Source: a virus
Reading direction: 5' to 3' (one strand)
Length of the DNA stretch: 64,000 nucleotides
Virus genome (UHGV): UHGV-0109738
The translations under genes and the position numbers were made by a program. Below the pieces are notes generated by a model that ran no database searches, was not told where the DNA came from, and was given only the letters and a program-made list of their open reading frames with translations. Of the stretch, positions 19,145-34,935 are shown in pieces. How positions within the stretch are numbered: the first letter of the stretch is position 1; every line of letters begins with the position of its first letter.

Positions 19145-19159
19145 TTTCTCACCTTGTCA

Positions 19160-19181: not shown

Positions 19182-19235
19182 AATCATACCAAAATGGATT
19201 GATCGAGGTTTTTACAATATGTATATTTTACTCAA

Positions 19236-19442
19236 ATGAAGGGGAAGTTAACAAAATGGCACAAAGGGCGCGGGATGAACGATAAACTATGGAGACTGAC
19301 CTTATTTGTGAGTAATGGGCGTGATATCGAGGCTGAATTCGATAACCCTAGCGACGCCTTAGAAACGTCCATTTACCTATCAGAAAAAGATGATCGCGTC
19401 CTGGGCTACCGGATTAAACCGATTAAAAGCGGGGATCAGTAA
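19236..19442 (+). CDS. hypothetical moron protein
   Basis: ORF track; opposite strand to tail genes; start uncertain (internal ATG at 19275). Confidence 0.35.
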   Translation: MKGKLTKWHKGRGMNDKLWRLTLFVSNGRDIEAEFDNPSDALETSIYLSEKDDRVLGYRIKPIKSGDQ

Positions 19443-20511: not shown

Positions 20512-20588
20512 GATGTGCGAACATTACGTTCTGGAAATGATCATTATCATTATTGGATTGTCATGCATTCTGCTATCGACACTATAAA

Positions 20589-20613
20589 CCCCGCCGTGGC
20601 GGGGTGTTTTTTT
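20589..20613 (+). terminator. rho-independent terminator
   Basis: ccccgcc-gt-ggcgggg followed by T-run; ends the plus-strand moron cassette. Confidence 0.7.
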
Positions 20614-20806: not shown

Positions 20807-21160
20807 CTAATTAATAACTTGCTCAAATGTTGCATTTAGCGTGTATAGCGGACCGTCTTTAGTCATGCTCCAGCTACGGCAAACAAAAAGCCTTTGCACG
20901 TTATCCATCGACGGCGACCAGTAAAAAGCCTCGACAGCGCCACGCGCCCTCAAGAATGCTTCCGCCTGGATCGCTACATTCCCACCATCGCCGCATCCTG
21001 CACTACTGCCTTTAAAAACCAGGGTGTAACTATCAAGTAATGTGTTAATCCCTTTCGCCTGGCGTTGTTCATACCCATCACCAAGTTTAATGACAGATAC
21101 GTTTGGTTCCCTGGTCACGCTGTAGCTTCTTTGCGGCGTCCATCTGAACACTTCCGGCAT
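20807..21160 (-). CDS. M: minor tail protein M
   Basis: N-terminal FRWTP..GDGYEQR and C-terminal NATFEQVIN match lambda M (FRWKV..GDGYSQR; EFSAEFEQVVN). Confidence 0.85.
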   Translation of the reverse strand: MPEVFRWTPQRSYSVTREPNVSVIKLGDGYEQRQAKGINTLLDSYTLVFKGSSAGCGDGGNVAIQAEAFLRARGAVEAFYWSPSMDNVQRLFVCRSWSMTKDGPLYTLNATFEQVIN

Positions 21161-21192
21161 AAAACCCCCACAAGTTACATTTTGTATATATC

Positions 21193-21216
21193 TTTACGCG
21201 CTTCTACGCGAAAAAT
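21193..21216. promoter_or_regulatory. conserved motif TTTACGCG-N4-TACGCGAAAAAT (copy A) upstream of M
   Basis: tttacgcgcttctacgcgaaaaat; second copy at 33325-33348. Confidence 0.4.
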
Positions 21217-21327
21217 GAGATCTTTGTCACAATGATTATAGCTAGTTTACAAAATGGCTTCACGTAGCATGCAACAAGATGTATATAGAAAGCAAGAAGA
21301 AAGCAGTACCAACGAAGGAGGCCCAAA

Positions 21328-21483
21328 ATGAAACGCTATGTAGTAGTAATGCTAAATAACGCATTCGAACAAGTGGAAATAGCAATCGTTAAGGGTTTCG
21401 ACGACGCATTCAAATACGGTCAATTCATGATGAATGCGAAAGAAGATGAATACCGGGACTTCTTCCTGAAGGCACTTAACTAA
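21328..21483 (+). CDS. small protein (51 aa) with strong RBS
   Basis: GAAGGAGG SD 7 nt upstream of ATG; below the 60-aa track cutoff, found by manual translation. Confidence 0.5.
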   Translation: MKRYVVVMLNNAFEQVEIAIVKGFDDAFKYGQFMMNAKEDEYRDFFLKALN

Positions 21484-21500
21484 GGATGATGGGGTGAGTT

Positions 21501-21755
21501 ATGAAACTGGTAGCGATTGACAAAAACCTGAAAGCACAGAAAAACGCGCCGGAACGTGTAGTTAAAAAAGCAAGGGAGCTTTTGAACGCGTTTTTAAACA
21601 AGGATGTGTCGCCCAAAAAATTAAAAGACGGTTACGGCTACGCCTTCCGCGCCAATTTAGACTGGCGAGTCTATAGCCAGGATCTGAAGGAGTGGGTGAT
21701 TGTTGAACATCATAAATTTAATGAATTATCTGGCGTGCGCGGTTGCCATAAGTGA
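21501..21755 (+). CDS. hypothetical protein (84 aa), weak RelE/HigB-toxin-like motif
   Basis: ORF track; motif GYAFRANLDWRVY..VIVEHH reminiscent of RelE/HigB-type toxins (unverified). Confidence 0.4.
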   Translation: MKLVAIDKNLKAQKNAPERVVKKARELLNAFLNKDVSPKKLKDGYGYAFRANLDWRVYSQDLKEWVIVEHHKFNELSGVRGCHK

Positions 21756-21865
21756 GTCGGGATATGAAGGACGATAAATTCACCTGGCGTGAGATCTGGA
21801 ACATCTGGTTAGTGATGTCCAGTAGGAGTTACATCGCACGTAACGGCAGACTGTAGGAGAAAAAA

Positions 21866-22048
21866 GTGATTATTGAAGAAACAAAACGTTGTTATGGTGT
21901 CCGGTTAGATCTTGAAAATGATGTATTGTGGATAACCGAACTTATGGGGACTGACACCATCGTGATTGACAAGTCGCAGGCTGTACAGCTTATTGCTGGA
22001 CTACAAAAGTTTGTTGATGGTGAGTTTAAAAACGAAGAGGTAGACTAA
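21866..22048 (+). CDS. hypothetical protein (60 aa)
   Basis: ORF track; GTG start with AGGAG SD. Confidence 0.4.
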   Translation: MIIEETKRCYGVRLDLENDVLWITELMGTDTIVIDKSQAVQLIAGLQKFVDGEFKNEEVD

Positions 22049-22053
22049 GAAAA

Positions 22054-22072
22054 AGGCCACTATAAGTGGCCT
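22054..22072. terminator. terminator-like hairpin (bidirectional)
   Basis: aggccac-tataa-gtggcct flanked by A-run and T-containing run. Confidence 0.5.
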
Positions 22073-22077
22073 TAGTG

Positions 22078-24420
22078 TTATTTGCGGCGCGGTTGCAACA
22101 TTCCGCCCGGTCTTTGAGATTCCCTTGTTATCATCTTCATAGCTACACGTTCCATTGTCTGTTCAAGTCTGCGGCTGTCTTCGTCGCTGAATCCGTTCGT
22201 TGTCTGAATGCTGATACTGACAGGCATACTAATACCGCCACCGCCGCCAATATCACGGCCCGGAATAACTCTGCCGTTCTCGCCAGGAATCATATATTGA
22301 TTCCCGTTAGGCGTCTGGAATAGCTCCGTCCTGTTGTTTTCCCCGACACGGTACAAGTTGCCACCAATGACGCTACCACCATTAAAGCGCCTGCCACCGA
22401 AGATGGATGTTGCCAGAGACATGATCGCAGTGAGTGCCGCAGAGCCAGCCGCCGCCCAGCTACCGCCAGTTGATGCTGCTGTTGCCGCCGCTGCCGGGGC
22501 CGCTGCCGCAGCGATGCTACCCTGAGCGGCTACCGCACTTGCCGTTGTGCTGGCCTGCGTTGCCTTGCTTTGTGTCTCCATCATGATTTGATCTGCTATC
22601 CAGTTGGCGGCTATGTCAGAAAGCCTGTTGCCGATGTTCCCTAGTATATTGCTCCCTAAGTTAGCAAAAACATCGCTCAATGATTGAGTGCCGTTAAGCA
22701 GGCCAACAAGCGCATTGCTCATGCCACCTTTAAGGCCATTAACGCAATCACCGATAAGGCCGTTAGTGTCGCTTTGCGCCTGCCACTGCTCCCATTTCAG
22801 ATCGCGGATCTGCTGCTCATAGGCTAACAATTCCTGTTTCTGTTGTGCTTCTGTAGCGCCCAGGTCGATAAGCATTTGCTTACGGACGGCCCATTCATTT
22901 TGTGCCTGCTGGATGGGGTCAACCTCGCCTTTTAGCTGGTCCATCGGGCTAACTATTTGCGACCATTTATCACGCAGTTCATCTACCGGGATCTGCGCTA
23001 ATTCTTCTTTCAGTTCCTTGCCGATCCCTTTTTGCGCGGCGCGGTACTCAAGGAGCGTGATTTTACCCTGGGCAAATGCAGCATCAATGGCCTTGCCGTT
23101 CTCCAACGCTTTGCGCATGGCGGCGGCGTCTTTGTTGTACTGATCAGAAACGCTTATACCTTTGTCACCAAGCCGATCAGCTTCCGATTTCTTCTCTTTT
23201 TTCTGTTTTTTCGGCTTGTCTACTGGCTTGTCGAATCCGGTAATCGCTCCGTCATTGGCAGCATTCTGTTCATTTTTCCTTGCTTCTTCTGTAGCCTGGA
23301 TTGCTGCGGTCAGATCATCCTGTAGTTGCATGACCTTGCCAACGGTCTTCCCGTATTTCTTCTCGTAGTTGCTGTTATATTCGTCGGTTTGCTCTCCTAC
23401 TACCTCCTTCACCCATTTATAGCCATCCATTAGCGCCTTGATTGGCGTCACCATTGCGATGATCTTCTCTGCCACCTCTCCAGCCTTAACAGCCACATCA
23501 TCAAACATGTCGATAAATTCGCTACCAGCCGTTTTGAGTGTGTCGAAGCAGGTTTTAGCGAATTTAGCGCCATCGCCAAGCCCTTTAACGCCTTTCGTGA
23601 TCAAGTCGATAGCTGAAACAACGCCATCTGACACGCCAAAAAGATCATCCAACTGCTCAACAAGGCCCATAATTTCTACTTTAAGCTCATTGATAGCCAT
23701 GCCGGATGTGCGCGGCAACTGAGCAAACTTATCGTTTGTTTCCTGCGTAGCCGCCTGTATTGCGTTAACCATCCTTTCAGCCGTGATCTTGCCGTCCAGC
23801 ATTTCGGCGCGGAACTGGCCCATTGATAATCCCATATGGCGGGCCATTGTTTGTACGATGGTCGGCGTGTTTTCAAGCAGGCTGTTAAATTCTTCGGCAC
23901 GAAGAACACCGCCGTCGATAGACTGACGGAATTGACGCATTGAGTTAGACATCTGTTCCGCTGACGCGCCGCCTAATGCACCCATTTTCTGAATAGTGCC
24001 AACCAGGTTAAGCAATTGCCCTTCCGTAGCGGAGGTGTTTTTTAGTGAGATAGCCAGGCCTTGCCATAATTCGCCAGTATCTTTCAGGCTCTGCCCCGTC
24101 TCCCTGGATATTTCTTTCAGACCATCAAAAACCCGCCCGGCAGATTCCGCGTCGCCTGTAAGCATTTTGATTTTGACGCGTAGCATTTTGGCCTGCTCTG
24201 CCATTTCCATAAACTGTCTAACGGCCTCGGCAGCAATTAGCAGATGGATAACCCTGGTCAGTGCTTTGATTGATGTTTTCAGTGTGTTTACCTGGCGATC
24301 GGCCTGTTTAGCACCGCGCTCTATACGGTCAAAGGCCTGGTCTGCCTGTCGTTGTGCTACAAGAAGTTGTCCTGTTTTTGCGTCAACTTCGTAATAAATT
24401 GTGCCTACACTGGTAGCCAT
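22078..24420 (-). CDS. tail tape measure protein
   Basis: 780 aa, alpha-helical, Gly/Ala-rich C-terminal region; located between tail chaperone position and M. Confidence 0.85.
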   Translation of the reverse strand: MATSVGTIYYEVDAKTGQLLVAQRQADQAFDRIERGAKQADRQVNTLKTSIKALTRVIHLLIAAEAVRQFMEMAEQAKMLRVKIKMLTGDAESAGRVFDGLKEISRETGQSLKDTGELWQGLAISLKNTSATEGQLLNLVGTIQKMGALGGASAEQMSNSMRQFRQSIDGGVLRAEEFNSLLENTPTIVQTMARHMGLSMGQFRAEMLDGKITAERMVNAIQAATQETNDKFAQLPRTSGMAINELKVEIMGLVEQLDDLFGVSDGVVSAIDLITKGVKGLGDGAKFAKTCFDTLKTAGSEFIDMFDDVAVKAGEVAEKIIAMVTPIKALMDGYKWVKEVVGEQTDEYNSNYEKKYGKTVGKVMQLQDDLTAAIQATEEARKNEQNAANDGAITGFDKPVDKPKKQKKEKKSEADRLGDKGISVSDQYNKDAAAMRKALENGKAIDAAFAQGKITLLEYRAAQKGIGKELKEELAQIPVDELRDKWSQIVSPMDQLKGEVDPIQQAQNEWAVRKQMLIDLGATEAQQKQELLAYEQQIRDLKWEQWQAQSDTNGLIGDCVNGLKGGMSNALVGLLNGTQSLSDVFANLGSNILGNIGNRLSDIAANWIADQIMMETQSKATQASTTASAVAAQGSIAAAAAPAAAATAASTGGSWAAAGSAALTAIMSLATSIFGGRRFNGGSVIGGNLYRVGENNRTELFQTPNGNQYMIPGENGRVIPGRDIGGGGGISMPVSISIQTTNGFSDEDSRRLEQTMERVAMKMITRESQRPGGMLQPRRK

Positions 24421-24723
24421 GATTTAACCTCATGCAAAATGTGATCTATGCATCTATTTTATACAAAATGTCTTTATTTTAACGATACCGTTTTGTATAG
24501 ATGATGTAGAGAAAGATAGAAGAGATGCAGGAAGGCCGGATGTCCCGGAGGAAGTGAAAGAGGATAAGAAAATGAGAAACGTAAACTACCGTCCCAACGA
24601 ATATGAACGCTATGCGGACCTTATCGAAGAAATGTTAAAAGCACTTAAAAAATAAACAATATGCGTGTATAACTAAGTTAAAGGAAGCATTTAGCAAATC
24701 AGAATAATTACAGGGGGTTGATT

Positions 24724-25143
24724 ATGAAACGGTTAGCAAAAATGGTGCTTGCTGTGATTGCTGCACTAGCATTTAACGCTAACGCTAACGCTAACGAGGC
24801 CATAAACATTAACTGTGAAGAAGTGGCAAACCATGTAGCCGCATATCACGACATGATCAAAAAAGAACCAGCCGCACCCACAATTCTTTTTAAGGCAATT
24901 GATAAAAATTTTGAAGGTAAACCAGTTTATGCTCGTTGGTTTAATTATGGCCTTGTAAACGAGGCTGCTGTAGGCGTAGTCTTTGAAAACAACAGCGAAA
25001 TAAAAAACAGGATAGCTAACGAGTGTAAAGCAAATAAAGTTGCTTTCGCTGAAAGAATTTTTAATAAAGGCGGCGCTGGTGCAAAAAATCACGCAATTGT
25101 CGATTTAGGTAACGGTTTTATTGATATTGTTAGAATCAAATAA
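24724..25143 (+). CDS. secreted hypothetical protein (moron), 139 aa
   Basis: Signal peptide MKRLAKMVLAVIAALAFNANA; AGGGGG SD; contains AACGCT x3 hexamer repeat. Confidence 0.55.
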   Translation: MKRLAKMVLAVIAALAFNANANANEAININCEEVANHVAAYHDMIKKEPAAPTILFKAIDKNFEGKPVYARWFNYGLVNEAAVGVVFENNSEIKNRIANECKANKVAFAERIFNKGGAGAKNHAIVDLGNGFIDIVRIK

Positions 25144-25150
25144 GACAAAC

Positions 25151-25173
25151 GCCCGGATCTACCGGGCTTTTTC
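25151..25173 (+). terminator. rho-independent terminator
   Basis: gcccgg-atcta-ccgggc followed by TTTTTC. Confidence 0.7.
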
Positions 25174-25845
25174 TTGCTTGCGATTTTCCATTCTTTTTAG
25201 CGCCTTTTTAGCAGCCTCCATTTGCTCGTCATAAGCACGTTTATTTATGTGAACATTTGGTCTACTTCTTTCATTTCTTTCGTCTGGCGGCGTTTTAGCG
25301 CGCACTGCGGCCCTGTATCCGGTCATTGTCATGTTCCACGCTTCTGATTCAGATAATCCCAGATGAGCAACGGCAGAATAAACGAAATCAAGTACATCAA
25401 ATGTCGGCTTGTATTCACCTTCCCGGATCTCGCTTGTATTTTCTTCCGGCCCGTCACCGATTAAACCGTGGTACATGCAGTGTTGCGCCAGCGTAATAAC
25501 ATCATCAACTGGCATTATTCCGGGCTTTAACCTTAATTTGCCCGAAGGAGTAAACCAGCATTCGCCCAATAACGGGCCTGTTTCGTCGTCTGAGCAACAT
25601 TTCAGGATGTGCATTGACGTTTGCACTATCCCACCATAACACCGCGCCATAATGCGATTGCGGAGGTCTGGATCTGTAGGTAATCGTGAAGGGTATTTGC
25701 TACCGTGGATGGTTGCGAAATATTCCACAAGCTCCCTGTCATTACCGATTTTAGCCATCGCAGCGAAACACGGGTTAAATTCATAGCGCTTACCGTTCAC
25801 CATAGCCACAAATTGTCCGGTACGAACATGAATCATAGTCTTCAC
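25159..25845 (-). CDS. putative tail assembly protein (position-based)
   Basis: 228 aa ORF between major tail protein and tape measure genes. Confidence 0.3.
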   Translation of the reverse strand: MKTMIHVRTGQFVAMVNGKRYEFNPCFAAMAKIGNDRELVEYFATIHGSKYPSRLPTDPDLRNRIMARCYGGIVQTSMHILKCCSDDETGPLLGECWFTPSGKLRLKPGIMPVDDVITLAQHCMYHGLIGDGPEENTSEIREGEYKPTFDVLDFVYSAVAHLGLSESEAWNMTMTGYRAAVRAKTPPDERNERSRPNVHINKRAYDEQMEAAKKALKRMENRKQEKAR

Positions 25846-25881
25846 CCTAAAAGAAAGGGGGCTAAATAGCCCCCTTATTGT

Positions 25882-26358
25882 TTACGCAGCAACCGGATCG
25901 GTTACAGTTACCTGGCCAGCGCTTTCGCACTCGATAGACCAGGTCGTCACATCATCATACGGAGCCTCTTCTTTGAAGGAGGTGCAAAGGAATGGCCCCT
26001 CGGTTACATCGGTGGCACTGACAATTTTCAGCCACACATATGGTTGATTTCCGGTAGCAGTGCCCGGAGACATTACATGCCGTTTTAGTGCTTTCTGGTT
26101 GTATGTATCATCGCTACGTGAAACACCATCACCAGAGAAGCTCACTGATTTATAAGTAACCAGCGACTCTTTGGTATAGTCGGCGGATTTATCAGCGGTA
26201 GCGTCTGCGGATTCCCATTCTACGGAAAGCGTTTTGCCGCGCATCATACCTAACGGCTTGTAGCCACCCTCTTCCGGTTTCGCGCTGGGACAAGCAATGG
26301 CATAGAACACGGCAACATCACGCCCGGTAAACGCACCGGATTTACAGGTTTCGGACAT
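25882..26358 (-). CDS. major tail (tube) protein
   Basis: 158 aa; position immediately upstream of chaperone/tape-measure genes. Confidence 0.5.
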   Translation of the reverse strand: MSETCKSGAFTGRDVAVFYAIACPSAKPEEGGYKPLGMMRGKTLSVEWESADATADKSADYTKESLVTYKSVSFSGDGVSRSDDTYNQKALKRHVMSPGTATGNQPYVWLKIVSATDVTEGPFLCTSFKEEAPYDDVTTWSIECESAGQVTVTDPVAA

Positions 26359-26371
26359 ATTGGTTTACCTC

Positions 26372-26758
26372 TTATCTGGATATGATGGATTGAAAAGCTA
26401 CGGTAAAAATAAAGCGCCCTTCTCTTGTCTGCATCGCAGGAATAGCGCCAACTGGCTTCATGTGTGTAATTTTATCAGTTTTATATTCTGTTAACATACT
26501 TTGACGGATGGCATCGGCCAGGTCTTCCACTTCACAGATATTTGCATCATTACGCGCTGAAATAACCAGGATGCGAAAATAATCACGGGTTATTGCTTCT
26601 TCACCAGCCGCGCCGCCGTTTTGCTGGATAACAATGTATCGGTCGTTATTCGAATTGGATTTTTCATTCCAGAAACGGGCCTGCAAAATATAGCCTTTAT
26701 CGTACCCGTGGGATTTAATCCAATCCCTTATTTCGTCGTATACTTCGCTGCGTTTCAT
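26372..26758 (-). CDS. tail completion/terminator-like protein (position-based)
   Basis: 128 aa; ATGA-type overlap with upstream gene. Confidence 0.35.
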   Translation of the reverse strand: MKRSEVYDEIRDWIKSHGYDKGYILQARFWNEKSNSNNDRYIVIQQNGGAAGEEAITRDYFRILVISARNDANICEVEDLADAIRQSMLTEYKTDKITHMKPVGAIPAMQTREGRFIFTVAFQSIISR

Positions 26759-27219
26759 GTTTTGTAACCTTCTACAATCTCTTTATAAATATCGTCGGCG
26801 TTGTTTGGATCTTCGAATGCCTTGCGCAAGAATTCCGGCTCCGCGTTTGGGTCCCAATATTTACCTTTGCCAGTACCGCCGCCGAACTCAATTACCTGTT
26901 TCGGCCCGAAATCTGAAAGGTTATTTGTTTTCCCGAAATGTTCACGCGGCTGGCCTTTTAATGTGCCTGGCATATTGTGCACCCATTCAGCGTAACGGGC
27001 TGTATATCCCAGCCGTAACTGCATACCCTCCGCCGTGTTACCTATATATTGAAATTGGCTGTTAATTAAAAAACCCGTATCAACCGGTGTCATGTTTGCC
27101 GCAAAGCCACCAGCCAGCATACCGACGCGCCATAAAACTTCGTGCGTCTTTTTATCGGTGATTTCCTTTAGCTCCTGCTTTAATCTCTCACGGACGCGTT
27201 TAACTCCCCTGATAGGCAT
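26755..27219 (-). CDS. HK97 gp10-like tail component
   Basis: 154 aa; position in head-tail joining block. Confidence 0.4.
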   Translation of the reverse strand: MPIRGVKRVRERLKQELKEITDKKTHEVLWRVGMLAGGFAANMTPVDTGFLINSQFQYIGNTAEGMQLRLGYTARYAEWVHNMPGTLKGQPREHFGKTNNLSDFGPKQVIEFGGGTGKGKYWDPNAEPEFLRKAFEDPNNADDIYKEIVEGYKT

Positions 27220-27221
27220 GA

Positions 27222-27590
27222 TTAACCCCCTGTCACGATCTTATAATCCGGCGTATCGTTAAACATGCTCATATCCCATTCAACGATCCCGGTAATAATG
27301 TTGGCTCCTGCCGCCATCGGGTCGGTAATATTGGTGGTGTCACCAGTGGCAATCATCCAGCCGTTTTCCGGGCGCTGTACTGGCTGCATATTATGAAGCA
27401 GTTCGGTAAATACGGTTATTGTATTGCTAACCTCATTACCGTTTGTGTCTGTTGCAGTGCCGTCGGTGCGCTCCCATGCGCAGTTAATCAGGTATGGTGC
27501 GCCGTATACGTCGGCGTTTGTCCAGTCGTCATGCGTTACGGGGTAGATGGTGGCTAATGCCTTGTAACTGAATCGCGCAATCTTACTCAT
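27222..27590 (-). CDS. head-tail adaptor protein (position-based)
   Basis: 122 aa. Confidence 0.35.
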   Translation of the reverse strand: MSKIARFSYKALATIYPVTHDDWTNADVYGAPYLINCAWERTDGTATDTNGNEVSNTITVFTELLHNMQPVQRPENGWMIATGDTTNITDPMAAGANIITGIVEWDMSMFNDTPDYKIVTGG

Positions 27591-27774
27591 AGCCGTAACT
27601 CCAGCTAATGACCTTTGGATGAGTTTTCGCCACGCGCGGGCAAAGAATTACCCATAAGCCAGCATCATTGAGGTAGGCCGCCACCTGGCGTCCGCTATCC
27701 GTTTTAACCCACACGCGGGTAAATGGTTTCGGCAATACTGGATTTGGTAATGTCAGGTCGTTCCACATTGTCAC
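27583..27774 (-). CDS. hypothetical structural-module protein (63 aa)
   Basis: ORF track; overlaps neighbours by a few nt. Confidence 0.35.
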   Translation of the reverse strand: MTMWNDLTLPNPVLPKPFTRVWVKTDSGRQVAAYLNDAGLWVILCPRVAKTHPKVISWSYGYE

Positions 27775-28157
27775 ACCCTCCTGCTCTTACCAATCCACAG
27801 CCCGGCGTGCGCGGTGTTTTCTGGATCTGGTGGAATTAGTTCGGCTGTACAATGGTGTTTGTCCAGTGAGTAAAGCAACGAATAGGCCGCCTTCCATCGC
27901 TTATTAAAATCGACATAGCGGTATGACTGACTCGCACCGTTCGGCCCAGTCTGCGAGGAAACGTATTTATCAGCCTGGCTTAGTCCTAACAGGCCAATCA
28001 GATAAAGCTGAATCAATGTTGCAGTGGAGGCCGGATAGTTGGCATCAAGGCATTCATTAACGCTATTTGCCTGCTCCACCAGCAAAGATAAGATAACGTC
28101 TGGCAGGTCAATACCCTGGCTTTCAATATATTCCCGCGCCTGTTCTGTAGTGACCAT
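27771..28157 (-). CDS. head-tail connector-like protein
   Basis: 128 aa from ATG with GGAG SD. Confidence 0.4.
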   Translation of the reverse strand: MVTTEQAREYIESQGIDLPDVILSLLVEQANSVNECLDANYPASTATLIQLYLIGLLGLSQADKYVSSQTGPNGASQSYRYVDFNKRWKAAYSLLYSLDKHHCTAELIPPDPENTAHAGLWIGKSRRV

Positions 28158-28222
28158 TTTGTTTTCTCCACATACAAAAAAATCCCCGGCATCGCGCCGG
28201 GGAGTTACAGGAAACATATCAA

Positions 28223-29287
28223 TCAGGTATTGCTGCCGTAGACCACACCTGAACGACCTTTCATATCACAGGTGATCTGAAGACCCTCAGCAGACATAAT
28301 GCGGAAGTTGTAGTTATCGGTCGGCATCATGCGCGGTAACGGAACTACGCCAGTGGTCATGCCAATCAGCGGGGTGATGACGCCGCGACTACGCTGATAA
28401 GCGATAAATTCGTTGTCAGTCAGCGCATAGGTCTGGCGAATATCATCAACCGGGACAAACGGCTTGATAACATCCAGTACACTACCAACAATTACGCCAT
28501 TAACGATGTGTGGGCGTGCCAGGTTAGCCATGATTTCTGGCGATACCCACATTACATCGTATTTAGCTACGAAGTTGGCGCGGGCCAGTTTCCCGAACTC
28601 ACCAGTGGTAAAGAATTCAATAATCTTATCGAAAGTCGCGGTGGTCAGGTCGATTTTAGCGACAGTTTTCAGTTTAAGTTGCTGGGTGTTTTTGTGGTTT
28701 TTAAGACCCATTGCTTTATGACCATCAACCACGATGCGATCGTTACCATTCAGGTAGAACTGGACGCGTGCTTTGTTGAATTTTTTCAGTTTAAGGCGCT
28801 GGCTGTCTAATGCAAGGTCGATGCCTACAGTATTTAAGCCCTGAGCTAAACGCCAGTTAACACCGTAACCCGCTGCGAACATCGGGATCGGGTCGCCATC
28901 GCTGCCGTATTCGGTGTGATCAAAGCCGTGTGGCGCTTGACCATCCATAGACATCACAACTTCATCATCGATGTCACCGGATACGTTGTACATTTTCAGC
29001 GTTTTACCGATTGGCAGTACGGTTTGCACACCCATCAGGTCGTTTACGATCTCAATACCGATTTCTTCGGTGTTCAGTTCGATAATCTGGTTATCGATTT
29101 CTTTCCAGAATTCTTTTGCGAAGCCGCCGACGGCGTTACAGGTCAACATTTCAGCGGTCATATTTGCCTGATTTGCAGCAATCATGGCGTTGTGCTGCTC
29201 GTTGAAGATATTGCGTTGCGCCCACAGTTCTTTCCAATGGCCCTGCATACGGGCGTTGGTGGCAAGGTTTTCTTTTGTAAAGTACAT
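28223..29287 (-). CDS. major capsid protein
   Basis: 354 aa; position after scaffold/decoration genes; size typical. Confidence 0.65.
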   Translation of the reverse strand: MYFTKENLATNARMQGHWKELWAQRNIFNEQHNAMIAANQANMTAEMLTCNAVGGFAKEFWKEIDNQIIELNTEEIGIEIVNDLMGVQTVLPIGKTLKMYNVSGDIDDEVVMSMDGQAPHGFDHTEYGSDGDPIPMFAAGYGVNWRLAQGLNTVGIDLALDSQRLKLKKFNKARVQFYLNGNDRIVVDGHKAMGLKNHKNTQQLKLKTVAKIDLTTATFDKIIEFFTTGEFGKLARANFVAKYDVMWVSPEIMANLARPHIVNGVIVGSVLDVIKPFVPVDDIRQTYALTDNEFIAYQRSRGVITPLIGMTTGVVPLPRMMPTDNYNFRIMSAEGLQITCDMKGRSGVVYGSNT

Positions 29288-29304
29288 GTTTTTCCCCTTT
29301 TAAA

Positions 29305-29733
29305 TTAAGCAACGCGAACGCGGATAAAATCTTCCGCCTCCAGGGTTACGTCTTCCTGGCAGTATGCGATGATCGGATCTGGCGCTGCCTGTTCACTTGG
29401 CGCAACAAACAGTTTCACCCCGTCGGCTGCGAGAGCAATAGCTGCACCCTTAACATAAGCGGCTGCAGGAACAAGGAGAGCAAACTCTCGGCCCTGTTCC
29501 ACATAATCAGCAACAACAGTTTCATTTGCAGCGATTGCATCAGTAATGGTTTTGCCTTCGTGGAATGCCGGGTTGACGATGTACAACTGAGCTGCACCGA
29601 CATCAGCACTGGTTGCTTTTGCAAACTTACCTCCGTCCAGTTTTACCAGTTCACCTGGTTTTACTGCGACCTTAGCAGTGTAGGTTTCGGTAATGGATTT
29701 ACCATCAATATTTACACGACGAAAACGAGACAT
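29305..29733 (-). CDS. head decoration/structural protein (DUF2190-like)
   Basis: 142 aa, Ala-rich. Confidence 0.4.
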   Translation of the reverse strand: MSRFRRVNIDGKSITETYTAKVAVKPGELVKLDGGKFAKATSADVGAAQLYIVNPAFHEGKTITDAIAANETVVADYVEQGREFALLVPAAAYVKGAAIALAADGVKLFVAPSEQAAPDPIIAYCQEDVTLEAEDFIRVRVA

Positions 29734-29747
29734 TGTATTCCCTCCAG

Positions 29748-31052
29748 TTAGAAATAAGTGTTAAAGTCAGGGACTTCGCCTTTTTTGTCTTCACTTGCTG
29801 TGTTGGCGGCTAGCGGAGTTGCTTTACCCAGGGATTTAAACATTGCCTCTAATGCTTCACCGCTTAATGCGTTAGCAACAATTTCGCCGTGAACTTTTGC
29901 TACTGCGGCGCGTTTTTCTGCTACTTCTTTATTTGCGTTTGCTGCAATTTCTTCTTTAATTGCTTTCTGGTTGGTCTGTAATTCTTCTTGGTTGGTCTGC
30001 AATTCTTCTACGCTTGCCTGTACTGGTTTTAATGCCTCTGCTACTGCATTAGCGATATTGGCGGCTAAGCCTTCGTTAATTTCTTTTACCAGTTCGGCGC
30101 GTTCTTCTTTTGTCAAAGGCATGGGATCGTCCTCCGATTTATTGGCCTTAATTTTTTCATTCAGGGAGAAAAGATTAGAAAGGTGTTCAGCGAACTGAGC
30201 AAACCATGATTTACTTTCCTCGTTGGTTGCAAGCTCGCCATTATTGAGAATAATTTTATCAGCCTGTTTTTCGTAGTTGTATCTTTCCGCACAGTTTTCA
30301 TTAGTGGCGATCGTCACCTCTCTATCAGTGAAGTCCACCACGTATACGTAATCAGCGTCAGGGAACATTTCCCGCGCGGCAGCGGTTAACTGCTTTTCAA
30401 GTGTGCGATAGCTATTTTCTTTCATTGCCACCGCCATTAACGGCTTCGCCTGGTCGGTATTAACCATTAAGCCTACGCCCTGTTCCGGCGAAGCGGCTGG
30501 CGGCTCATGCAGCAAGATAGCGTCATGGTCGATCGACATGATTTTCACTACATGGTCAGCACCCTGGGCTTTCATTTTTTCGGTGGCTGGCATACGCTGG
30601 CGATATACAGCGACGGACGACCAGATAGGATCTTTGCTTTCTCCTTTCTCCAGTGCTTCCAGTCGGGCTAATAATTCGCGGCCCTGGCTTGAATGGCTGG
30701 CGGTTTCCACATCCACCCATTTTTCCACATAAACACGGTTGCCGCGTAACTCAACGTTTCTGTTCCACGCACCACAAAAACCCGTGTTTAATCCTTCCGG
30801 GCTAAATGCTGAAACAAATTTACCGTCAACGGTAGGATGGCCCAGCGGGGCAAGCGTACCCTCCAGTGACTGGTAATTAGCGATAATTTCAGCTTCCGGG
30901 TAATATTCACGATTCATAACGATATTGAATGGCAGCGTATATGATGGCACAACAATGTGCTCGCGTCCGTTATAAGTTTCCCGGCGTATGGTATTAGCGG
31001 TTAATTTGGTATTAACCTGAATCAGTTCTTTACTCACGGTTTTTACTCCCAA
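29748..31052 (-). CDS. putative scaffolding/prohead protein
   Basis: 434 aa with C-terminal coiled-coil (EELQTNQEELQTNQKAIKEE). Confidence 0.45.
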   Translation of the reverse strand: MGVKTVSKELIQVNTKLTANTIRRETYNGREHIVVPSYTLPFNIVMNREYYPEAEIIANYQSLEGTLAPLGHPTVDGKFVSAFSPEGLNTGFCGAWNRNVELRGNRVYVEKWVDVETASHSSQGRELLARLEALEKGESKDPIWSSVAVYRQRMPATEKMKAQGADHVVKIMSIDHDAILLHEPPAASPEQGVGLMVNTDQAKPLMAVAMKENSYRTLEKQLTAAAREMFPDADYVYVVDFTDREVTIATNENCAERYNYEKQADKIILNNGELATNEESKSWFAQFAEHLSNLFSLNEKIKANKSEDDPMPLTKEERAELVKEINEGLAANIANAVAEALKPVQASVEELQTNQEELQTNQKAIKEEIAANANKEVAEKRAAVAKVHGEIVANALSGEALEAMFKSLGKATPLAANTASEDKKGEVPDFNTYF

Positions 31053-31987
31053 TCTTCGCCATATTTAGCGTGCGCAACTTTATAGTTTTCTTGCGCCCGA
31101 TCTAATATTCGTTCGTTTAATATGTTACCGTCTTCGTCAACTAATACGGTAATCGTGCTACATTTGCAGTTAATTGAATTAGGGGATCTACTCCACCATT
31201 CGCGCTGCTCATCTATGGTGTATGTTTTACCGTGCCGCTGCGCGTGCGATAGCCTGGTAGTCGGTGATAATGCCGAAATGTGCATTTGCATAGTGCGCAG
31301 ATTAAATTCTTCTGTCGCCGCTTCTGCCTCATCCATACGCGCTGTGCGTAACGCTGTGCATATTTCAGTTCGAGCAATACGTTTACACCTGTATAGCGGT
31401 AATTGCGTCTCCTGATTCAATGTGCGCGCTATTTCCAGTGGGTTTAAACCACGGGCCATGCCTTCAGTTAGTCGGCGGGCCATATCCTTTTTGATCTGTG
31501 CTGTCAGCCCGCGCATTTCCTCAAATACACGGGTACGGACAAGGGCAAGGCGTGTGCGGTAAGTTGTGCTGGATAGCACGACAGACACATCAGGATAGGC
31601 GCTTGAGTACGTGACAGACTGGTTAGCGAGGTTGGCATATTCCTGTGCCGTGCCGCGCTGATAAGCCACCTTCACGTAATTCTGCCAAAACCAAAAACTT
31701 TCCGGGTCGGTTAGCTCGAATATCTCATCAATCATGTCGCTGGCGTCCTCCAGCATGTCATGCAGTTCATCCATGTAAATCTGAAAGGTGTATTTCTTAT
31801 TAACAGCCAGGCTATATTGTATTCTGTCAAGTATGGCGAGATATGGATCGGCTATTTTGTTCAGGCAGGATTTGAAACGCTTAATAGCGCCAGACCTTAA
31901 CTTCCCTGTCATGGTCGGGTCTTCGGTGTTAGATGGCATTATCGCGGCTGGAGGTATTCGCCTGATTATTTTCTTCACCTTCATCAT
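31043..31987 (-). CDS. head morphogenesis (minor head) protein
   Basis: 314 aa; directly downstream of portal. Confidence 0.5.
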   Translation of the reverse strand: MMKVKKIIRRIPPAAIMPSNTEDPTMTGKLRSGAIKRFKSCLNKIADPYLAILDRIQYSLAVNKKYTFQIYMDELHDMLEDASDMIDEIFELTDPESFWFWQNYVKVAYQRGTAQEYANLANQSVTYSSAYPDVSVVLSSTTYRTRLALVRTRVFEEMRGLTAQIKKDMARRLTEGMARGLNPLEIARTLNQETQLPLYRCKRIARTEICTALRTARMDEAEAATEEFNLRTMQMHISALSPTTRLSHAQRHGKTYTIDEQREWWSRSPNSINCKCSTITVLVDEDGNILNERILDRAQENYKVAHAKYGEDWE

Positions 31988-33302
31988 CGTTTTCCTCGTC
32001 TTCCAGTTCTACTTCATTAGCCGGGCCATCGTATCCGGCAGCTTCACGGATCTCGTCACCGCTGAATATTTCCTCACCAGTAGCGAGACATGCATGATTG
32101 ATTTGTGCCATTTTGTATGCCGCGTCGAGTAGCTCAGCTTTTGTCATGGCGTTAAGGTCGTCCCACAGCACAGATACGTCTACTGGCATACTGATAAGGC
32201 GGAGATCTGCCATCTTGCGGAATAGTTCCTCAAGCTCGCCTCCTATTTCCTCCCGGCGGGTCATACAGCGGTTATTGAAGTAGCGGAGGTCTTCGGTTGA
32301 TGCACGCTCACCCTGCTGATTCCCAACCAGGATACGCGTTGGAATGTCGATGCCAGCGGCGGCGGTTTGCAGGTTGACGTCATAGGTAGCGGACGGATCG
32401 GCTACGGCAGTAACCAGCGGGCTAACGGTAGCTCCCTGCAATGCCATCATCACATCATTACCTTTATTTATATCCTCTGCCGCTTCATTGAATTTTTCGC
32501 GTAGCTCTGTAACGTCGCAACCGTATGTTGCAGCCAGGGAACGGAAATCAATCTCTTTATCGAACGAGATAGCCAGTTGACGTGCTGCGTTTTTCAGGAA
32601 TGATTCACCGCTGCCGCCTTCCACTTTCTCCAGTGAAACGAATGCGTTATAGGACGGTTCAAGGAAAGCGATGGCATCATCAGAATAATCACCGAAGATA
32701 AATATGCGATCTGGATGTATCTTTCTTGCTATGGTCTTACTGTTAATGCGCTCCTTGTATTCCCACCATGTAGGCAGGCCATAGTTTTCTTTATCCGGGT
32801 TTTCTTCGAAGTCCTTCGGTGTAAGAGCACCAGCCCATACGGGGGTAAATTTGGCAATGCCTACGCCTTTTGTTACTGGCTGATCCCACGGCTTGTTATC
32901 CCTGACGTGAATTAACAGTCCAGCATAACGACCGATGAGGCGGCGGCGATCGCATTCAGCAATTACGCGCCAGAATCTATTGTCGAATCGTTTTTTGATT
33001 TCTCTTTCCCACGAAGTTTCCTTTTCCGCTTTCTCGTCTTCCGTACCTTCAATCAGCGTTGGCCTGGTGCGCCAGCACGTAGTAATGATCTTCTCAATAG
33101 CACCGTGAGCGATACCACCGCGACGATACAGTTTGTATAAATCGGCATAGGTGATTTCTTCTTTAAATCCGTATTCACTCCACGCAGCATCACGTTTGGC
33201 ATCTATCCCCATAGTGAACGGATGTGCCGCTGCATAGCGGGCAAAGGCCGCCTGGCGTTGAGACAAGGCAGCATTAACCGCCAATTCTAAATTGGATGGC
33301 AT
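31929..33302 (-). CDS. portal protein
   Basis: 457 aa from ATG preceded by AGGAG; acidic C-terminus; follows terL. Confidence 0.7.
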   Translation of the reverse strand: MPSNLELAVNAALSQRQAAFARYAAAHPFTMGIDAKRDAAWSEYGFKEEITYADLYKLYRRGGIAHGAIEKIITTCWRTRPTLIEGTEDEKAEKETSWEREIKKRFDNRFWRVIAECDRRRLIGRYAGLLIHVRDNKPWDQPVTKGVGIAKFTPVWAGALTPKDFEENPDKENYGLPTWWEYKERINSKTIARKIHPDRIFIFGDYSDDAIAFLEPSYNAFVSLEKVEGGSGESFLKNAARQLAISFDKEIDFRSLAATYGCDVTELREKFNEAAEDINKGNDVMMALQGATVSPLVTAVADPSATYDVNLQTAAAGIDIPTRILVGNQQGERASTEDLRYFNNRCMTRREEIGGELEELFRKMADLRLISMPVDVSVLWDDLNAMTKAELLDAAYKMAQINHACLATGEEIFSGDEIREAAGYDGPANEVELEDEENDDEGEENNQANTSSRDNAI

Positions 33303-33324
33303 AATGTTTACTCCTGAATACATG

Positions 33325-33348
33325 TTTACGCGTTGCTACGCGAAAAAT
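33325..33348. promoter_or_regulatory. conserved motif TTTACGCG-N4-TACGCGAAAAAT (copy B) upstream of portal
   Basis: tttacgcgttgctacgcgaaaaat; 21 of 24 nt identical to copy A. Confidence 0.4.
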
Positions 33349-33413
33349 AGAAAAATTCGTGAGGGATTGTGAGGCAGATTTTGTGTAGCTAATTGAGAAT
33401 TATTATTGTTCAT

Positions 33414-33432
33414 CTTCGAAAATTTTTCGAAG
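33414..33432. repeat. 19-bp perfect palindrome in terL-portal intergenic gap
   Basis: cttcgaaaatttttcgaag. Confidence 0.6.
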
Positions 33433-33450
33433 TTGATAATAATCAATAAC

Positions 33451-34935
33451 TTAAAACCCTCGCAGGCGCTTAGGTAACATAAGGCCCATTGCCTGTGGCT
33501 GGCTTAGTTCGGTGATACCCCATACCATTGCGTCCATACGGTCAGGGGATTTTTTGGCGGTAGCTGGCACGTATTCCATCATTTGATTTTCCAGCGTATA
33601 TAGCTCACCAGTGTGTGCCACCCTTCCTTGTGCATACAGTGCTGATATTGGTTCGGCGCGGGCGAATTTACCTTTGCTTGCGTGCACCTTAACAATGCGG
33701 CCTTTGAATCCTGCATTGCGTAGCGTGGCCTCTGCCATGTCACCGCCCTGGTTGGTTTCGATAACTATCGCGTCAGCTTCATGGATGTCATAAGCGTTCA
33801 TTGCTGCTTGCGCCCAGTCGTTAGGCGACATGCGGCCTGAATAGTCACCGTCTACTGAATACTGTGCGTACTTGCCGCCACCATAAGCGGAACACGCCAT
33901 GATCCCCGTTTCGTCTGACTCATCAGATGATGTTGTCGCAGGGTCAATAGCTATCACAGTGCGGATTTTCTCCTGCGTTATCTGCATCCGGTGCGCGGCG
34001 GTAATCATCGCCTCTGTCCACAACGCACCCTCTTCGTCGAATTTACGCGGGCGCTGCATGTACTGGGCCTCAAATGACCGTCTGTGTGCCTTCAGTCCAG
34101 CTTCATGGGCGTCATTGTGCTTTTTAGGCCATAGCCAGCCATCTGGCAGGTTATGAGGAATGGGGATAGCGAACTCGTTTTCAGGATACAAATCCCGGTA
34201 GTCAACGCTGTTGTCGATTTTCACTGGCAGGTTCAAGTGATACCACTTTTCACCGCTTCCACCGCGTAGCAGGTAGCCGGACAAATCATCGTAGTGGATG
34301 CGCTGCATGATGACGATGACAGGCGTTGTTTGCACCGCCAGACGTGAAGCAAGCGTGTCGTTGTAGTTGGTGTTTACCTGCTTTCTCACCACGTCAGAGT
34401 AAGCGTCAGCGGGTTTTAATGGGTCGTCGATGATTAACGCGCCATTAAATCCTGGCTCCATATACCCCGCACGGAACCCTGTAACCTGGCCAAGCGATGA
34501 CGTTGCATACACGCCGCCACCGTATTCAGTCCACCACATTGATTTTGAGTTTGCATCGTTGCGGATCCTCATGGGCCACATTGCCTGATATTCAGGCGTA
34601 CAGATCATGTTTCTTACGGTCGAGGAATTGAGTAACGCCAGGTTGTTGGAATAGGAGACATGAAGGAATCGTGTGCGGGGATTTATTGCGAGTGACCGCG
34701 CCATCATGTTGATAGTTGCGATCATGGTTTTGCCGTACCCTGGAGGGATGTTAATGATGAGTCGGGTTATCTCACCATTGACAACGCGTTGCAGTGCGTC
34801 GCGGATAGCTAAGTGATGGCCTGAGATTAACATCTTCGTTCCGTTCGCTTGCTTATAGAAGTAGCGATTGAAAAACAGGCCATCGTTTTCACATTTGGAC
34901 TGAATAACTCGTTCTTTGATTGTCAGCATAATCAC
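33451..34935 (-). CDS. terminase large subunit
   Basis: 494 aa; Walker A-like PPGYGKT; follows terS. Confidence 0.85.
   Translation of the reverse strand: MIMLTIKERVIQSKCENDGLFFNRYFYKQANGTKMLISGHHLAIRDALQRVVNGEITRLIINIPPGYGKTMIATINMMARSLAINPRTRFLHVSYSNNLALLNSSTVRNMICTPEYQAMWPMRIRNDANSKSMWWTEYGGGVYATSSLGQVTGFRAGYMEPGFNGALIIDDPLKPADAYSDVVRKQVNTNYNDTLASRLAVQTTPVIVIMQRIHYDDLSGYLLRGGSGEKWYHLNLPVKIDNSVDYRDLYPENEFAIPIPHNLPDGWLWPKKHNDAHEAGLKAHRRSFEAQYMQRPRKFDEEGALWTEAMITAAHRMQITQEKIRTVIAIDPATTSSDESDETGIMACSAYGGGKYAQYSVDGDYSGRMSPNDWAQAAMNAYDIHEADAIVIETNQGGDMAEATLRNAGFKGRIVKVHASKGKFARAEPISALYAQGRVAHTGELYTLENQMMEYVPATAKKSPDRMDAMVWGITELSQPQAMGLMLPKRLRGF

What the first reader, a model, noticed from the sequence alone, without database searches (positions are those of the whole stretch)
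21193..33348. Shared motif TACGCG-N4-TACGCG-AAAAAT upstream of two late genes (M and portal)
tttacgcgcttctacgcgaaaaat (21193-21216) and tttacgcgttgctacgcgaaaaat (33325-33348) are 21 of 24 nt identical. Each lies 25-55 nt upstream of the start codon of a minus-strand late gene, in unusual gaps within otherwise compact operons. The direct hexamer repeat with 10-bp spacing suggests a protein-binding site, for example a late-gene activator or processing signal.
Basis: seen in the sequence. Interest (0 to 1): 0.55.

Follow-up and report, generated by a model that had tools for sequence, protein, structure and literature searches.

The report
Conserved hairpin before two late genes
A 27-base imperfect palindrome just upstream of the portal gene and the tail-tip gene M is almost invariant in every phage of the recently described mEpimmI group of E. 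coli prophages, so it is a real and undescribed control element, but sequence alone cannot say whether it acts as an RNA stem-loop or as a protein-binding DNA site.

Summary
Both 24-mers are at the stated coordinates, are 22 of 24 identical (not 21), and are the only two copies in the window (0 expected by chance). The window holds a prophage of the mEpimmI group (mEp021, MagusPhagus), with its late genes on the minus strand. One copy lies 23-46 nt upstream of the portal start, the other 33-56 nt upstream of minor tail gene M. In relatives retrieved through the proteins alone, the motif is present in 50/50 portal loci and 31/31 M loci. Its nucleotide diversity (0.004 and 0.036) is lower than at amino-acid-changing codon positions. 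It is absent from more distant relatives and from all other deposited phages. The direct hexamer repeat is the core of a 27-nt imperfect palindrome. The variable bases form the loop. One lineage has a 1-nt loop deletion (spacing 9, not 10), and the rare stem changes are G.U-compatible only on the late mRNA strand. My best reading (about 0.4) is a sequence-specific stem-loop in the leaders of these two late cistrons. A double-stranded DNA operator (about 0.3) remains open. It is not a sigma-70 promoter, terminator, nut site or Rfam family. Nothing about it was found in the searched literature.

The parts
21190..21216 (-). Site 1 element. The late-strand reading is ATTTTTCGCGTAGAAGCGCGTAAAGAT, a 27-nt imperfect palindrome (11-bp stem with a bulged U and a 4-6 nt loop).
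33322..33348 (-). Site 2 element. The late-strand reading is ATTTTTCGCGTAGCAACGCGTAAACAT. It has the same stem sequences as site 1 and a different loop.
20807..21160 (-). Minor tail protein M gene, the cistron directly downstream of site 1. Its RBS is GGGGG and its ATG is at 21160.
   Evidence: (PF05939, E 3e-28)
31929..33302 (-). Portal gene, the cistron directly downstream of site 2. An AGGAG lies 8 nt before the ATG at 33302.
   Evidence: (PF06381)
33451..34935 (-). Terminase large subunit gene, the cistron upstream of site 2.
   Evidence: (PF17289)
33303..33321 (-). Spacer between the site 2 hairpin and the portal ATG (GTATTCAGGAGTAAACATT). It is nearly invariant. The 46-nt similarity between the two sites extends into this stretch.
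21216..21231 (.). CRP-like palindrome TGAGATCTTTGTCACA abutting site 1. It belongs to the divergent control region of the + strand cassette, not to the shared motif.
21235..21240 (-). TATAAT on the late strand, 19 nt upstream of the site 1 element. It is invariant in 26 distinct relatives and may be an internal late-strand -10 element. That would put the element at about +12 to +38 of the transcript.
21248..21287 (+). Probable + strand promoter of the 51-aa/ParE-like cassette: TACAAAATGG box (21248-21257), -35 TTCACG (21259-21264) and -10 TATATA (21282-21287). It transcribes away from the motif.
21328..21755 (+). Opposite-strand cassette that fills the 'gap' at site 1: a 51-aa ORF (21328-21483) and an 84-aa ParE-like toxin (21501-21755).
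22053..22073 (.). Bidirectional intrinsic terminator between the tape measure gene and the + strand cassette. Late transcripts must read through it, or restart, to reach M.
33383..33452 (.). 70-nt palindromic insertion right after the terL stop codon. It is absent from mEp021 and lies about 35 nt upstream of site 2. It is not part of the motif, but it explains why the gap is longer in this window.

Best explanation
The shared motif is the core of a 27-nt imperfect palindrome that is transcribed as part of the late (minus-strand) mRNA. There it can fold into an 11-bp stem: six A-U/G.U pairs, a bulged U, then CGCG(U)/(R)CGCG, closed by a 4-6 nt variable loop. It ends 19 nt (portal) and 29 nt (M) before the start codons. 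I propose it is a sequence-specific cis-acting RNA element in the leaders of these two cistrons. It would be a recognition hairpin for a protein or a ribonuclease, a processing, stability or translational operator, that sets the expression of the first gene after an untranslated gap in the Q-antiterminated late transcript. Shown: the element exists in two copies in the same orientation relative to late transcription, it is under very strong purifying selection, it is specific to the mEpimmI group, it can form the hairpin, and its natural variation is confined to the loop or to wobble-compatible changes. Inferred: that it acts at the RNA level, and what the consequence is.
For: Two copies only, far beyond chance. 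Both lie on the late strand at similar distances from an RBS and ATG. In sets retrieved through the proteins, not through the motif, 49/50 portal loci match exactly and the remaining one differs by one base in the T-run. All 31 mEpimmI-type M loci also carry it. Nucleotide diversity in the stems is 0.004 (site 2) and 0.036 (site 1). This compares with 0.29-0.33 at third codon positions, 0.036-0.065 at first and second codon positions, and 0.16-0.17 in the flanking intergenic DNA. The loop is 4-13 times more variable than the stems. Natural variants fit a late-strand hairpin. C9>T and C19>T give U.G and G.U pairs. A14>G is in the loop. A 1-nt loop deletion changes the repeat spacing to 9. A/G changes in the 3' arm lie opposite U. 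The proposed structure is 94.8% paired on the late strand and 83.4% on the + strand, with mean MFE -8.5 against -6.1 kcal/mol. RNAalifold recovers the core helix. The site 1 element looks like a roughly 33-nt block added to a leader that is otherwise homologous to the leader of gene L. No sigma-70 promoter or terminator consensus overlaps it.
Against: No pair shows a compensatory change on both sides. The wobble-type changes are few, about three inside the hexamers, and all are transitions, of which about two thirds would be neutral by chance. The hairpin is short, and its energy is not clearly better than shuffled sequence (z -1 to -2). The two paralogous copies keep identical stem sequences, which fits recognition of double-stranded DNA equally well. 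For site 2 the two strands fold about equally well. No transcript, cleavage or binding data exist, and no candidate RNA-binding protein was identified.
Confidence: 0.4

Rival explanations
1. The motif is a double-stranded DNA binding site for a phage or host protein, recognised either as two TACGCG hexamers on the same helical face or as a palindrome. It would act as an operator or roadblock inside the late operon, analogous to the stoperators of mycobacteriophage L5. At site 1 it could act as an operator downstream of the conserved late-strand TATAAT.
For: The stems and hexamers are identical in both paralogous copies and nearly invariant across the group, with no covariation. This is what sequence-specific recognition of DNA predicts. 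The spacing is 10 bp in all but one lineage. The orientation is the same relative to late transcription. At site 1 the element would lie at about +12 to +38 of a possible promoter whose TATAAT is invariant.
Against: One lineage (L166, L168) has 9-bp spacing. Three substitutions fall inside the hexamers. There are only two sites per genome, and single hexamers are not enriched. The putative operators of the immunity region are CTTGCA/TGCAAG palindromes unrelated to the motif. The 1-nt asymmetry between the arms (the bulged T) is invariant, which is unusual for a symmetric dimer site. No candidate binding protein emerged.
Confidence: 0.3
2. The motif is a remnant of a duplication, small mobile element or recombination linker at module boundaries (packaging | head and tail tube | tail tip), with no regulatory role of its own. 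Its conservation would reflect its position next to the ribosome binding sites and the young age of the group.
For: The two sites share a 46-nt stretch of paralogous similarity that extends beyond the hairpin. Site 1 looks like an insertion relative to the homologous leader of L. Both sites lie next to hot spots for insertions: the + strand cassette, the 70-nt palindrome, and inserts in ES2 and L363.
Against: At site 1 the hairpin is a conserved island (diversity 0.036) between more variable flanks, including the spacer to the RBS (0.155). Both copies have kept identical stems while their loops and flanks diverged. The element sits at fixed positions in every genome and is found nowhere else, so there is no sign of mobility.
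Confidence: 0.12
3. The motif is itself a late promoter, either sigma-70 with a class II activator binding the repeats, or a CII-like direct-repeat activator site. It would restart transcription at portal and M.
For: It lies directly upstream of two late genes. A terminator and an antisense cassette lie upstream of M. The repeat geometry (4-6 bp repeats, 10-bp period) recalls TTGC-N6-TTGC of lambda CII (general knowledge).
Against: The consensus scan finds no promoter overlapping either site. The hexamers that could serve as a -10 are not conserved at the key positions: TRTAYN on the late strand and TGAGAT, TAAGAT or TAGAAA on the + strand. A start point downstream of the site 2 motif would leave almost no leader before the Shine-Dalgarno sequence. 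The phage has a lambda-type Q protein (PF03589), which makes internal late promoters unnecessary.
Confidence: 0.07
4. The motif is an antitermination or termination signal: a nut-like boxB for the N-like Gp17, a put-like RNA, or a degenerate intrinsic terminator.
For: It has a short G+C stem with a purine-rich loop that begins with U. This superficially resembles the boxB hairpins I read beside boxA in this phage group.
Against: No boxA lies nearby. BoxA matches fall only at the three positions I take to be the known nut sites, given where the literature places them. The loop is not GNRA-like, and its bases vary freely. The U-run precedes rather than follows the hairpin on both strands, and the terminator scan is negative. 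There is no Rfam match.
Confidence: 0.03

Closest known systems
Intercistronic processing and stability hairpins of phage late or polycistronic mRNAs (for example the RNase III sites of T7, or 5' stem-loop stabilisers such as the ompA leader hairpin)
   Same: Short, repeated, conserved stem-loops placed between cistrons and just upstream of an RBS, in one orientation relative to transcription.
   Different: T7 RNase III sites are stems of about 20 bp or more with an internal loop and occur about ten times per genome. This element has an 11-bp, largely A-U stem and occurs twice. No cleavage has been shown. A 5' stabiliser must lie within a few nucleotides of the 5' end, which is unknown here.
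Translational operator hairpins bound by phage proteins (MS2/PP7 coat protein operators, the Mu Com-mom hairpin, T4 RegA sites)
   Same: A small stem-loop with a conserved bulged base and sequence-specific stem, near a translation start. Two cistrons could be co-regulated.
   Different: In those systems the hairpin contains or directly controls access to the RBS or start codon, and the loop bases are recognised. Here the loop varies, the Shine-Dalgarno sequence is 10-20 nt outside the hairpin, and no binding protein is known.
Stoperators of cluster A mycobacteriophages (L5 gp71 sites)
   Same: Short asymmetric sites in small intergenic gaps of the structural operon, all in one orientation relative to transcription. 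They would silence late genes in the lysogen by blocking elongation.
   Different: L5 has about 24-30 copies that match the operator of the immunity repressor. Here there are only two copies, and they do not resemble the putative immunity operators.
Start-associated sequences (SAS/ESAS) of cluster K mycobacteriophages
   Same: Group-specific conserved motifs a few to tens of nucleotides upstream of start codons of selected genes, partly as inverted repeats, with function still unknown.
   Different: SAS includes the RBS itself and occurs before 10-19 genes. The sequences are unrelated and the host is different.
Lambda CII / P22 C1 sites (TTGC-N6-TTGC)
   Same: A 4-bp direct repeat with a 10-bp period (CGCG-N6-CGCG) in a temperate coliphage.
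   Different: CII sites straddle a -35 region with a -10 about 12 nt downstream. No such conserved -10 exists here on either strand. One lineage has altered spacing.
boxB of lambdoid nut sites (including mEp021 nutL, nutR1, nutR2)
   Same: A 4-5 bp G+C stem with a purine-rich loop in the same phage group.
   Different: There is no boxA. The loop is not GNRA-like and is not conserved. The element is in the late operon, downstream of Q.

Membership tests
Sigma-70 promoter | A -35 and a -10 hexamer with 16-18 bp spacing, with conserved A at -11 and T at -7 | tested here: not met
   The consensus scan finds none overlapping either site. Candidate -10 hexamers next to the motif vary at -11 and -7 among relatives.
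Intrinsic terminator | A G+C-rich hairpin followed by a U-run on the transcribed strand | tested here: not met
   No terminator-like site is found at either motif. On both strands the T-run precedes the hairpin.
Lambdoid nut site | boxA (CGCTCTTTAA-like) 5' of the hairpin | tested here: not met
   BoxA matches lie at 46464, 53899 and 55125, which I take to be the three nut sites. There is none between 12 kb and 36.7 kb.
Lambdoid nut site | boxB with a conserved GNRA-like purine loop | tested here: not met
   The loops are AGAA, AGCA, AGAG, AGCU, AGCG and AGAU. The first base is A and the loop bases vary freely.
Structured cis-regulatory RNA (any Rfam family) | Match to a curated covariance model | tested here: not met
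   There are no hits at gathering threshold in the window. Only chance-level hits (E 0.24 to 4) lie around the sites.
Structured cis-regulatory RNA (generic) | Base pairs supported by compensatory changes on both sides | tested here: inconclusive
   94.8% of cells are paired and 6 pairs vary on one side only (wobble). No pair changes on both sides. The sequences are too similar to test this properly.
Helically phased direct-repeat DNA-binding site (CII-like or response-regulator-like) | Fixed centre-to-centre spacing of the half-sites | tested here: inconclusive
   The spacing is 10 bp in all variants except one lineage with 9 bp (L166, L168).
Helically phased direct-repeat DNA-binding site (CII-like or response-regulator-like) | A protein that binds the site | not testable with these tools
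   This needs EMSA, a DNA pull-down or ChIP.
Stoperator-like repressor sites | The sequence matches the operator of the immunity repressor | tested here: not met
   The repeats in the immunity region are CTTGCA/TGCAAG palindromes, and there is no TACGCG there. The true operators have not been defined experimentally.
Stoperator-like repressor sites | Many copies spread through the genome in one orientation | tested here: not met
   There are exactly two copies per genome.
Mobile miniature repeat (REP/MITE-like) | Multiple copies in varied contexts | tested here: not met
   It always occurs in the same two contexts. It is absent from other phages and from other places in E. coli.

The most novel reading that the evidence does not exclude
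The element is a sequence-specific RNA operator, a bulged stem-loop read by a so far unidentified phage-encoded or host RNA-binding protein. It would jointly tune synthesis of the two ring-forming assembly initiators, the portal (head) and M (tail tip), independently of the rest of the Q-driven late transcript. That would be a post-transcriptional layer of late-gene control not described for lambda-like coliphages.
Probability: 0.12. Interest if true: 0.6.

Novelty: new member of a known kind. Interest (0 to 1): 0.4.

Why it matters
The mEpimmI phages are a newly defined group of temperate coliphages that is common in the gut. Their early antitermination system has been studied, but I found nothing in the searched literature on how their late operon is controlled. 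That operon is unusual, because three opposite-strand cassettes with their own terminators interrupt the tail genes. This motif is one of the most strongly constrained non-coding sequences in the structural region. It marks the two points where translation resumes after an untranslated stretch. If it is an RNA operator or processing site, it would show that expression of individual late cistrons is adjusted after transcription in a Q-antiterminated operon. If it is a DNA operator, it would be a stoperator-like silencing device in an enterobacterial phage. In either case it is a small, well-defined target for mutagenesis in mEp021, which is genetically tractable.

Tried and rejected
1. A third, reverse-oriented partial copy (CTACGCGAAAAAT, 32492-32504, inside the portal gene) is not conserved at synonymous positions in relatives, so it is a chance match.

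2. A + strand promoter reading (TTTACG-17-TGAGAT or TAGAAA) fails because the -10 varies at position -11 among relatives.

3. Late-strand -10 candidates just after the motif (TATATA, TGTATT, AAAGAT) are not conserved or lack A at -11 and T at -7.

4. A class II CRP-dependent promoter would fit the site 1 geometry, but site 2 has no CRP-like site.

5. A small peptide encoded across the motif has no conserved frame or start at site 1 (direct reading).

6. An RBS-sequestering long-range helix predicted at site 2 is not maintained in variants, and its energy equals that of shuffles.

7. Looking for diverged copies to obtain covariation gave nothing. Cronobacter phage ES2, the portal relatives at 60% identity and the M relatives at 65-70% identity all lack the element. 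A degenerate-stem pattern scan of IMG/VR returned only random A+T-rich hits. A metagenome scan anchored on the portal RBS added no new stem variants.

8. The genome-contig scan with the portal found no relatives.

9. Literature searches for mEp021, Gp17 and TACGCG found no description of the motif.

10. Pfam and PHROGs searches of neighbouring small proteins gave no candidate binding protein.

Full report
**What is there**

They differ at two positions, so they are 22/24 identical rather than 21/24. A search for TACGCG-N4-TACGCG with one mismatch allowed finds only these two copies (0.37 expected). The full 21-specified-base pattern with up to three mismatches also finds only these two, against 0.00 in shuffles. 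Single TACGCG hexamers are not enriched (40 against 31 +/- 5). The unit is therefore the whole motif, not a scattered half-site.

**Context**

Megablast places the region in the mEpimmI group of temperate coliphages: mEp021 (MH706966), mEp010, 013, 044, 515 and 554, and MagusPhagus. The group was described in PMC11893012.

The structural genes run on the window's minus strand:
- terS at 34932-35417;
- terL at 33451-34935 (Terminase_6C);
- portal at 31929-33302 (Phage_portal_3);
- head and tail genes;
- tape measure at 22078-24420;
- M at 20807-21160 (Phage_min_tail);
- L at 18440-19144;
- a J-like gene at 12249-17219.

A lambda-family Q antiterminator (PF03589) is at 44310-45032. By analogy with lambda, the late genes are probably one Q-antiterminated transcription unit. 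This is an inference.

Site 2 sits in the terL-portal gap. Its motif ends 22 nt before the AGGAG-preceded ATG at 33302.

Site 1 ends 32 nt before the ATG of M. The 918-nt 'gap' at site 1 is not empty:
- It holds a + strand cassette, a 51-aa ORF plus an 84-aa ParE-like toxin.
- It holds a bidirectional terminator at 22053-22073.
- Next to the motif lies a CRP-like palindrome at 21216-21231.
- Further on are a TACAAAATGG box and the + strand promoter elements.

**Conservation**

I first searched IMG/VR for the exact motif. It returned 85 loci from about 45 contigs, two per genome about 12 kb apart, always in the same two contexts.

That search is circular, so I retrieved relatives through the proteins instead.
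- Of 50 portal loci (84-100% protein identity), 49 match the motif exactly. The remaining one has a single T>C in the T-run.
- All 31 M loci of the mEpimmI type (84-97% identity) carry the motif.
- The 49 M homologues at 65-70% identity from other phage groups do not. Many of those have an intrinsic terminator immediately before M.
- In a 1.3-kb alignment, the 50-nt stretch 33350-33301 is the most conserved. Its mean majority frequency is 0.993, against about 0.92 in coding sequence and 0.83 in the neighbouring intergenic DNA.
- At site 1 the motif is a conserved island between variable flanks.

Nucleotide diversity:

| Region | Site 1 / M | Site 2 / portal |
|---|---|---|
| Stem and bulge positions | 0.036 | 0.004 |
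| Loop | 0.14 | 0.05 |
| Flanking intergenic DNA | 0.17 | 0.16 |
| First and second codon positions | 0.065 | 0.036 |
| Third codon positions | 0.33 | 0.29 |

The motif is thus constrained at least as strongly as amino-acid-changing positions.

Outside the group it is absent:
- Only the seven mEp-type records among 50,697 phage records carry it.
- Cronobacter phage ES2 (terL 78% identical) lacks it.
- Enterobacter and Citrobacter prophages with 60%-identical portals have a 15-nt terL-portal gap and no motif.
- The site 2 region occurs in 51 of 5,426 complete E. coli genomes.

**Anatomy**

Read on the late strand, the element is ATTTTT-CGCG-TAG-NNN-CGCG-T-AAA(G/C)AT. CGCG is self-complementary, so the 'direct hexamer repeat' is at the same time the two arms of an imperfect palindrome. 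The flanking ATTTTT and AAARAT are also complementary.

As RNA it can form an 11-bp stem with one bulged U and a 4-6 nt loop. The energy is -9.3 kcal/mol at site 1 and -6.2 at site 2. That is only 1-2 standard deviations better than shuffled sequence.

The positions that vary freely among relatives are the three central bases (+ strand CTT, TTG, ATT, CCT, TAG, TCG, TTT). These lie in the loop or at its closing pair.

The protein-anchored set adds rarer variants:
- C>T at the first base of the 5' CGCG (L169, L173) and of the 3' CGCG (L172). Both give G.U pairs on the late-strand RNA but A.C mismatches on the + strand.
- A>G in the loop (L145, L147).
- A one-base deletion in the loop, which makes the hexamer spacing 9 instead of 10 (L166, L168).
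- A T-run of four instead of five (L144).
- A/G exchanges in the 3' arm opposite U.

On 28 distinct variants the proposed structure is 94.8% paired on the late strand and 83.4% on the + strand. Mean MFE is -8.5 against -6.1 kcal/mol. RNAalifold recovers the core helix.

There is no pair with changes on both sides, so there is no real covariation. The few stem substitutions are transitions, and about two thirds of possible transitions would be structure-neutral by chance. The hairpin is therefore plausible and favoured, but not proven.

**Origin**

A local alignment shows that the similarity between the two sites extends over 46 nt, from TCT-ATTTTT to GTAA(A)C. This points to duplication of a leader segment.

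The control region upstream of M is homologous to those upstream of L and of the tape measure gene. Each of these follows an opposite-strand cassette. Relative to the L leader, the M leader carries an extra block of about 33 nt that is the element.

**What it is not**

- It is not a sigma-70 promoter. The consensus scan finds none overlapping either site, and candidate -10 hexamers on either strand vary at positions -11 and -7.
- It is not an intrinsic terminator. The T-run precedes the hairpin on both strands.
- It is not a nut site. BoxA matches occur only at three positions, which I take to be the known nut sites given where the literature places them. The loop is not GNRA-like.
- It matches no Rfam family.
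- It is unlike the palindromes of the immunity region.
- The reverse 13-mer inside the portal gene is a chance match.

**Most likely mechanism**

The evidence I weigh is:
- the same orientation of both copies relative to late transcription;
- placement in the leaders of the first cistron after an untranslated stretch;
- tolerance of changes in loop sequence and loop length;
- wobble-type stem changes;
- an invariant bulged base.

Together these favour a cis-acting stem-loop in the late mRNA (about 0.4).

Both paralogous copies keep identical stem sequences, and the hairpin is only moderately stable. This suggests sequence-specific recognition by a protein or ribonuclease, rather than action as a purely physical barrier. 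A consequence for processing, stability or translation of portal and M is inferred, not shown.

The main rival is a double-stranded DNA operator or roadblock (about 0.3). The absence of covariation supports it. So does the invariant late-strand TATAAT 19 nt upstream of site 1, which would put the element at about +12 to +38 of an internal promoter.

A functionless relic (about 0.12), a promoter (about 0.07) and an antitermination or termination signal (about 0.03) are less likely.

**Novelty and verdict**

The paper describing the group discusses nut sites, the repressor, integration, receptors and exclusion, but not this element or late-gene control. Other literature searches found nothing.

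The element is a new, group-specific member of a known kind of feature: a conserved intercistronic regulatory motif in a phage late operon. It is not a new kind of system. It is real, strongly constrained and easy to test, but its function is unresolved. Interest is about 0.4.

Noticed in passing
window 19144-19240, 21160-21330, 24420-24560: The tail gene cluster is interrupted three times by opposite-strand cassettes: before the tape measure gene, before M and before L. The three junctions share a homologous divergent control region. It consists of a CRP-like TGTGA-N6-TCACA site, a TACAAAATGG box, + strand -35 and -10 elements, and a conserved late-strand -10-like hexamer (TATAAT, TGgTATGAT, TATAAAAT). 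This suggests internal promoters that restart late-strand transcription after each cassette.
   Followed up: partly
window, 24 sites, e.g. 21248, 24462/24488, 40392/40418, 46492/46557, 54193, 55036: TACAAAATGG (up to 1 mismatch) occurs 24 times against 7 expected, and 0 of 100 shuffles reach this. It often lies just 5' of a -35 hexamer, for example in the early promoter TACAAAATGG-ATTGACT-N17-TATATT, or as inverted pairs 26 bp apart. It may be an UP-like promoter element or the binding site of a regulator.
   Followed up: partly
window 11813, 19163, 21216, 40433, 46533 (16-mers): CRP-consensus-like palindromes (TGTGA-N6-TCACA, up to 1 mismatch) occur 7 times against 2.0 expected. Five of them lie next to a TACAAAATGG box. 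In relatives the half-sites are conserved while the central bases vary. All contain GATC.
   Followed up: partly
window 33383-33452: A 70-nt palindromic insertion lies right after the terL stop codon. It is present in about 30% of related phages and absent from mEp021. Copies at 83-85% identity occur at unrelated chromosomal places in other E. coli strains, for example ATCC 8739. It is possibly a small mobile palindromic element.
   Followed up: partly
window 21328-21755 (+): A 51-aa ORF followed by an 84-aa ParE-like toxin (PF24732) is inserted antisense between the tape measure gene and M. It is probably a toxin-antitoxin moron.
   Followed up: partly
window 19800-20039 and 20049-20285 (+): Two adjacent ORFs match consecutive parts of HNH endonuclease families (phrog_99 positions 113-190 and 196-268). 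This looks like a split, probably decayed, homing endonuclease gene in the cassette before L.
   Followed up: no
window 22053-22073 and about 20585-20612: Bidirectional intrinsic terminators bracket the small M plus 60-aa-ORF unit. Only the first was found by the scan. The second was read directly from the sequence and matches TERM_11/12 in the mEp021 annotation.
   Followed up: no
L142 2060-2450 (Cronobacter phage ES2) and L363 1737-1933: In more distant relatives the terL-portal gap carries a different insert that ends in a strong terminator just before the portal RBS. The ES2 insert contains a tRNA-like GGTTCGAGTCC stretch. This junction is a recurrent insertion hot spot.
   Followed up: no
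window 31929-33302 (-): RefSeq (PGAP) names this protein 'anti-CBASS protein Acb1 family protein'. Pfam (Phage_portal_3), its position in the genome and the mEp021 annotation indicate a portal protein. The name is probably a propagated misnomer.
   Followed up: no
window 33321-33323: The mEp021 record starts the portal at the upstream in-frame ATG that abuts the motif, with its annotated RBS lying inside the CDS. The downstream ATG at 33302, preceded by AGGAG, is the more likely start and is the one used in MagusPhagus.
   Followed up: partly
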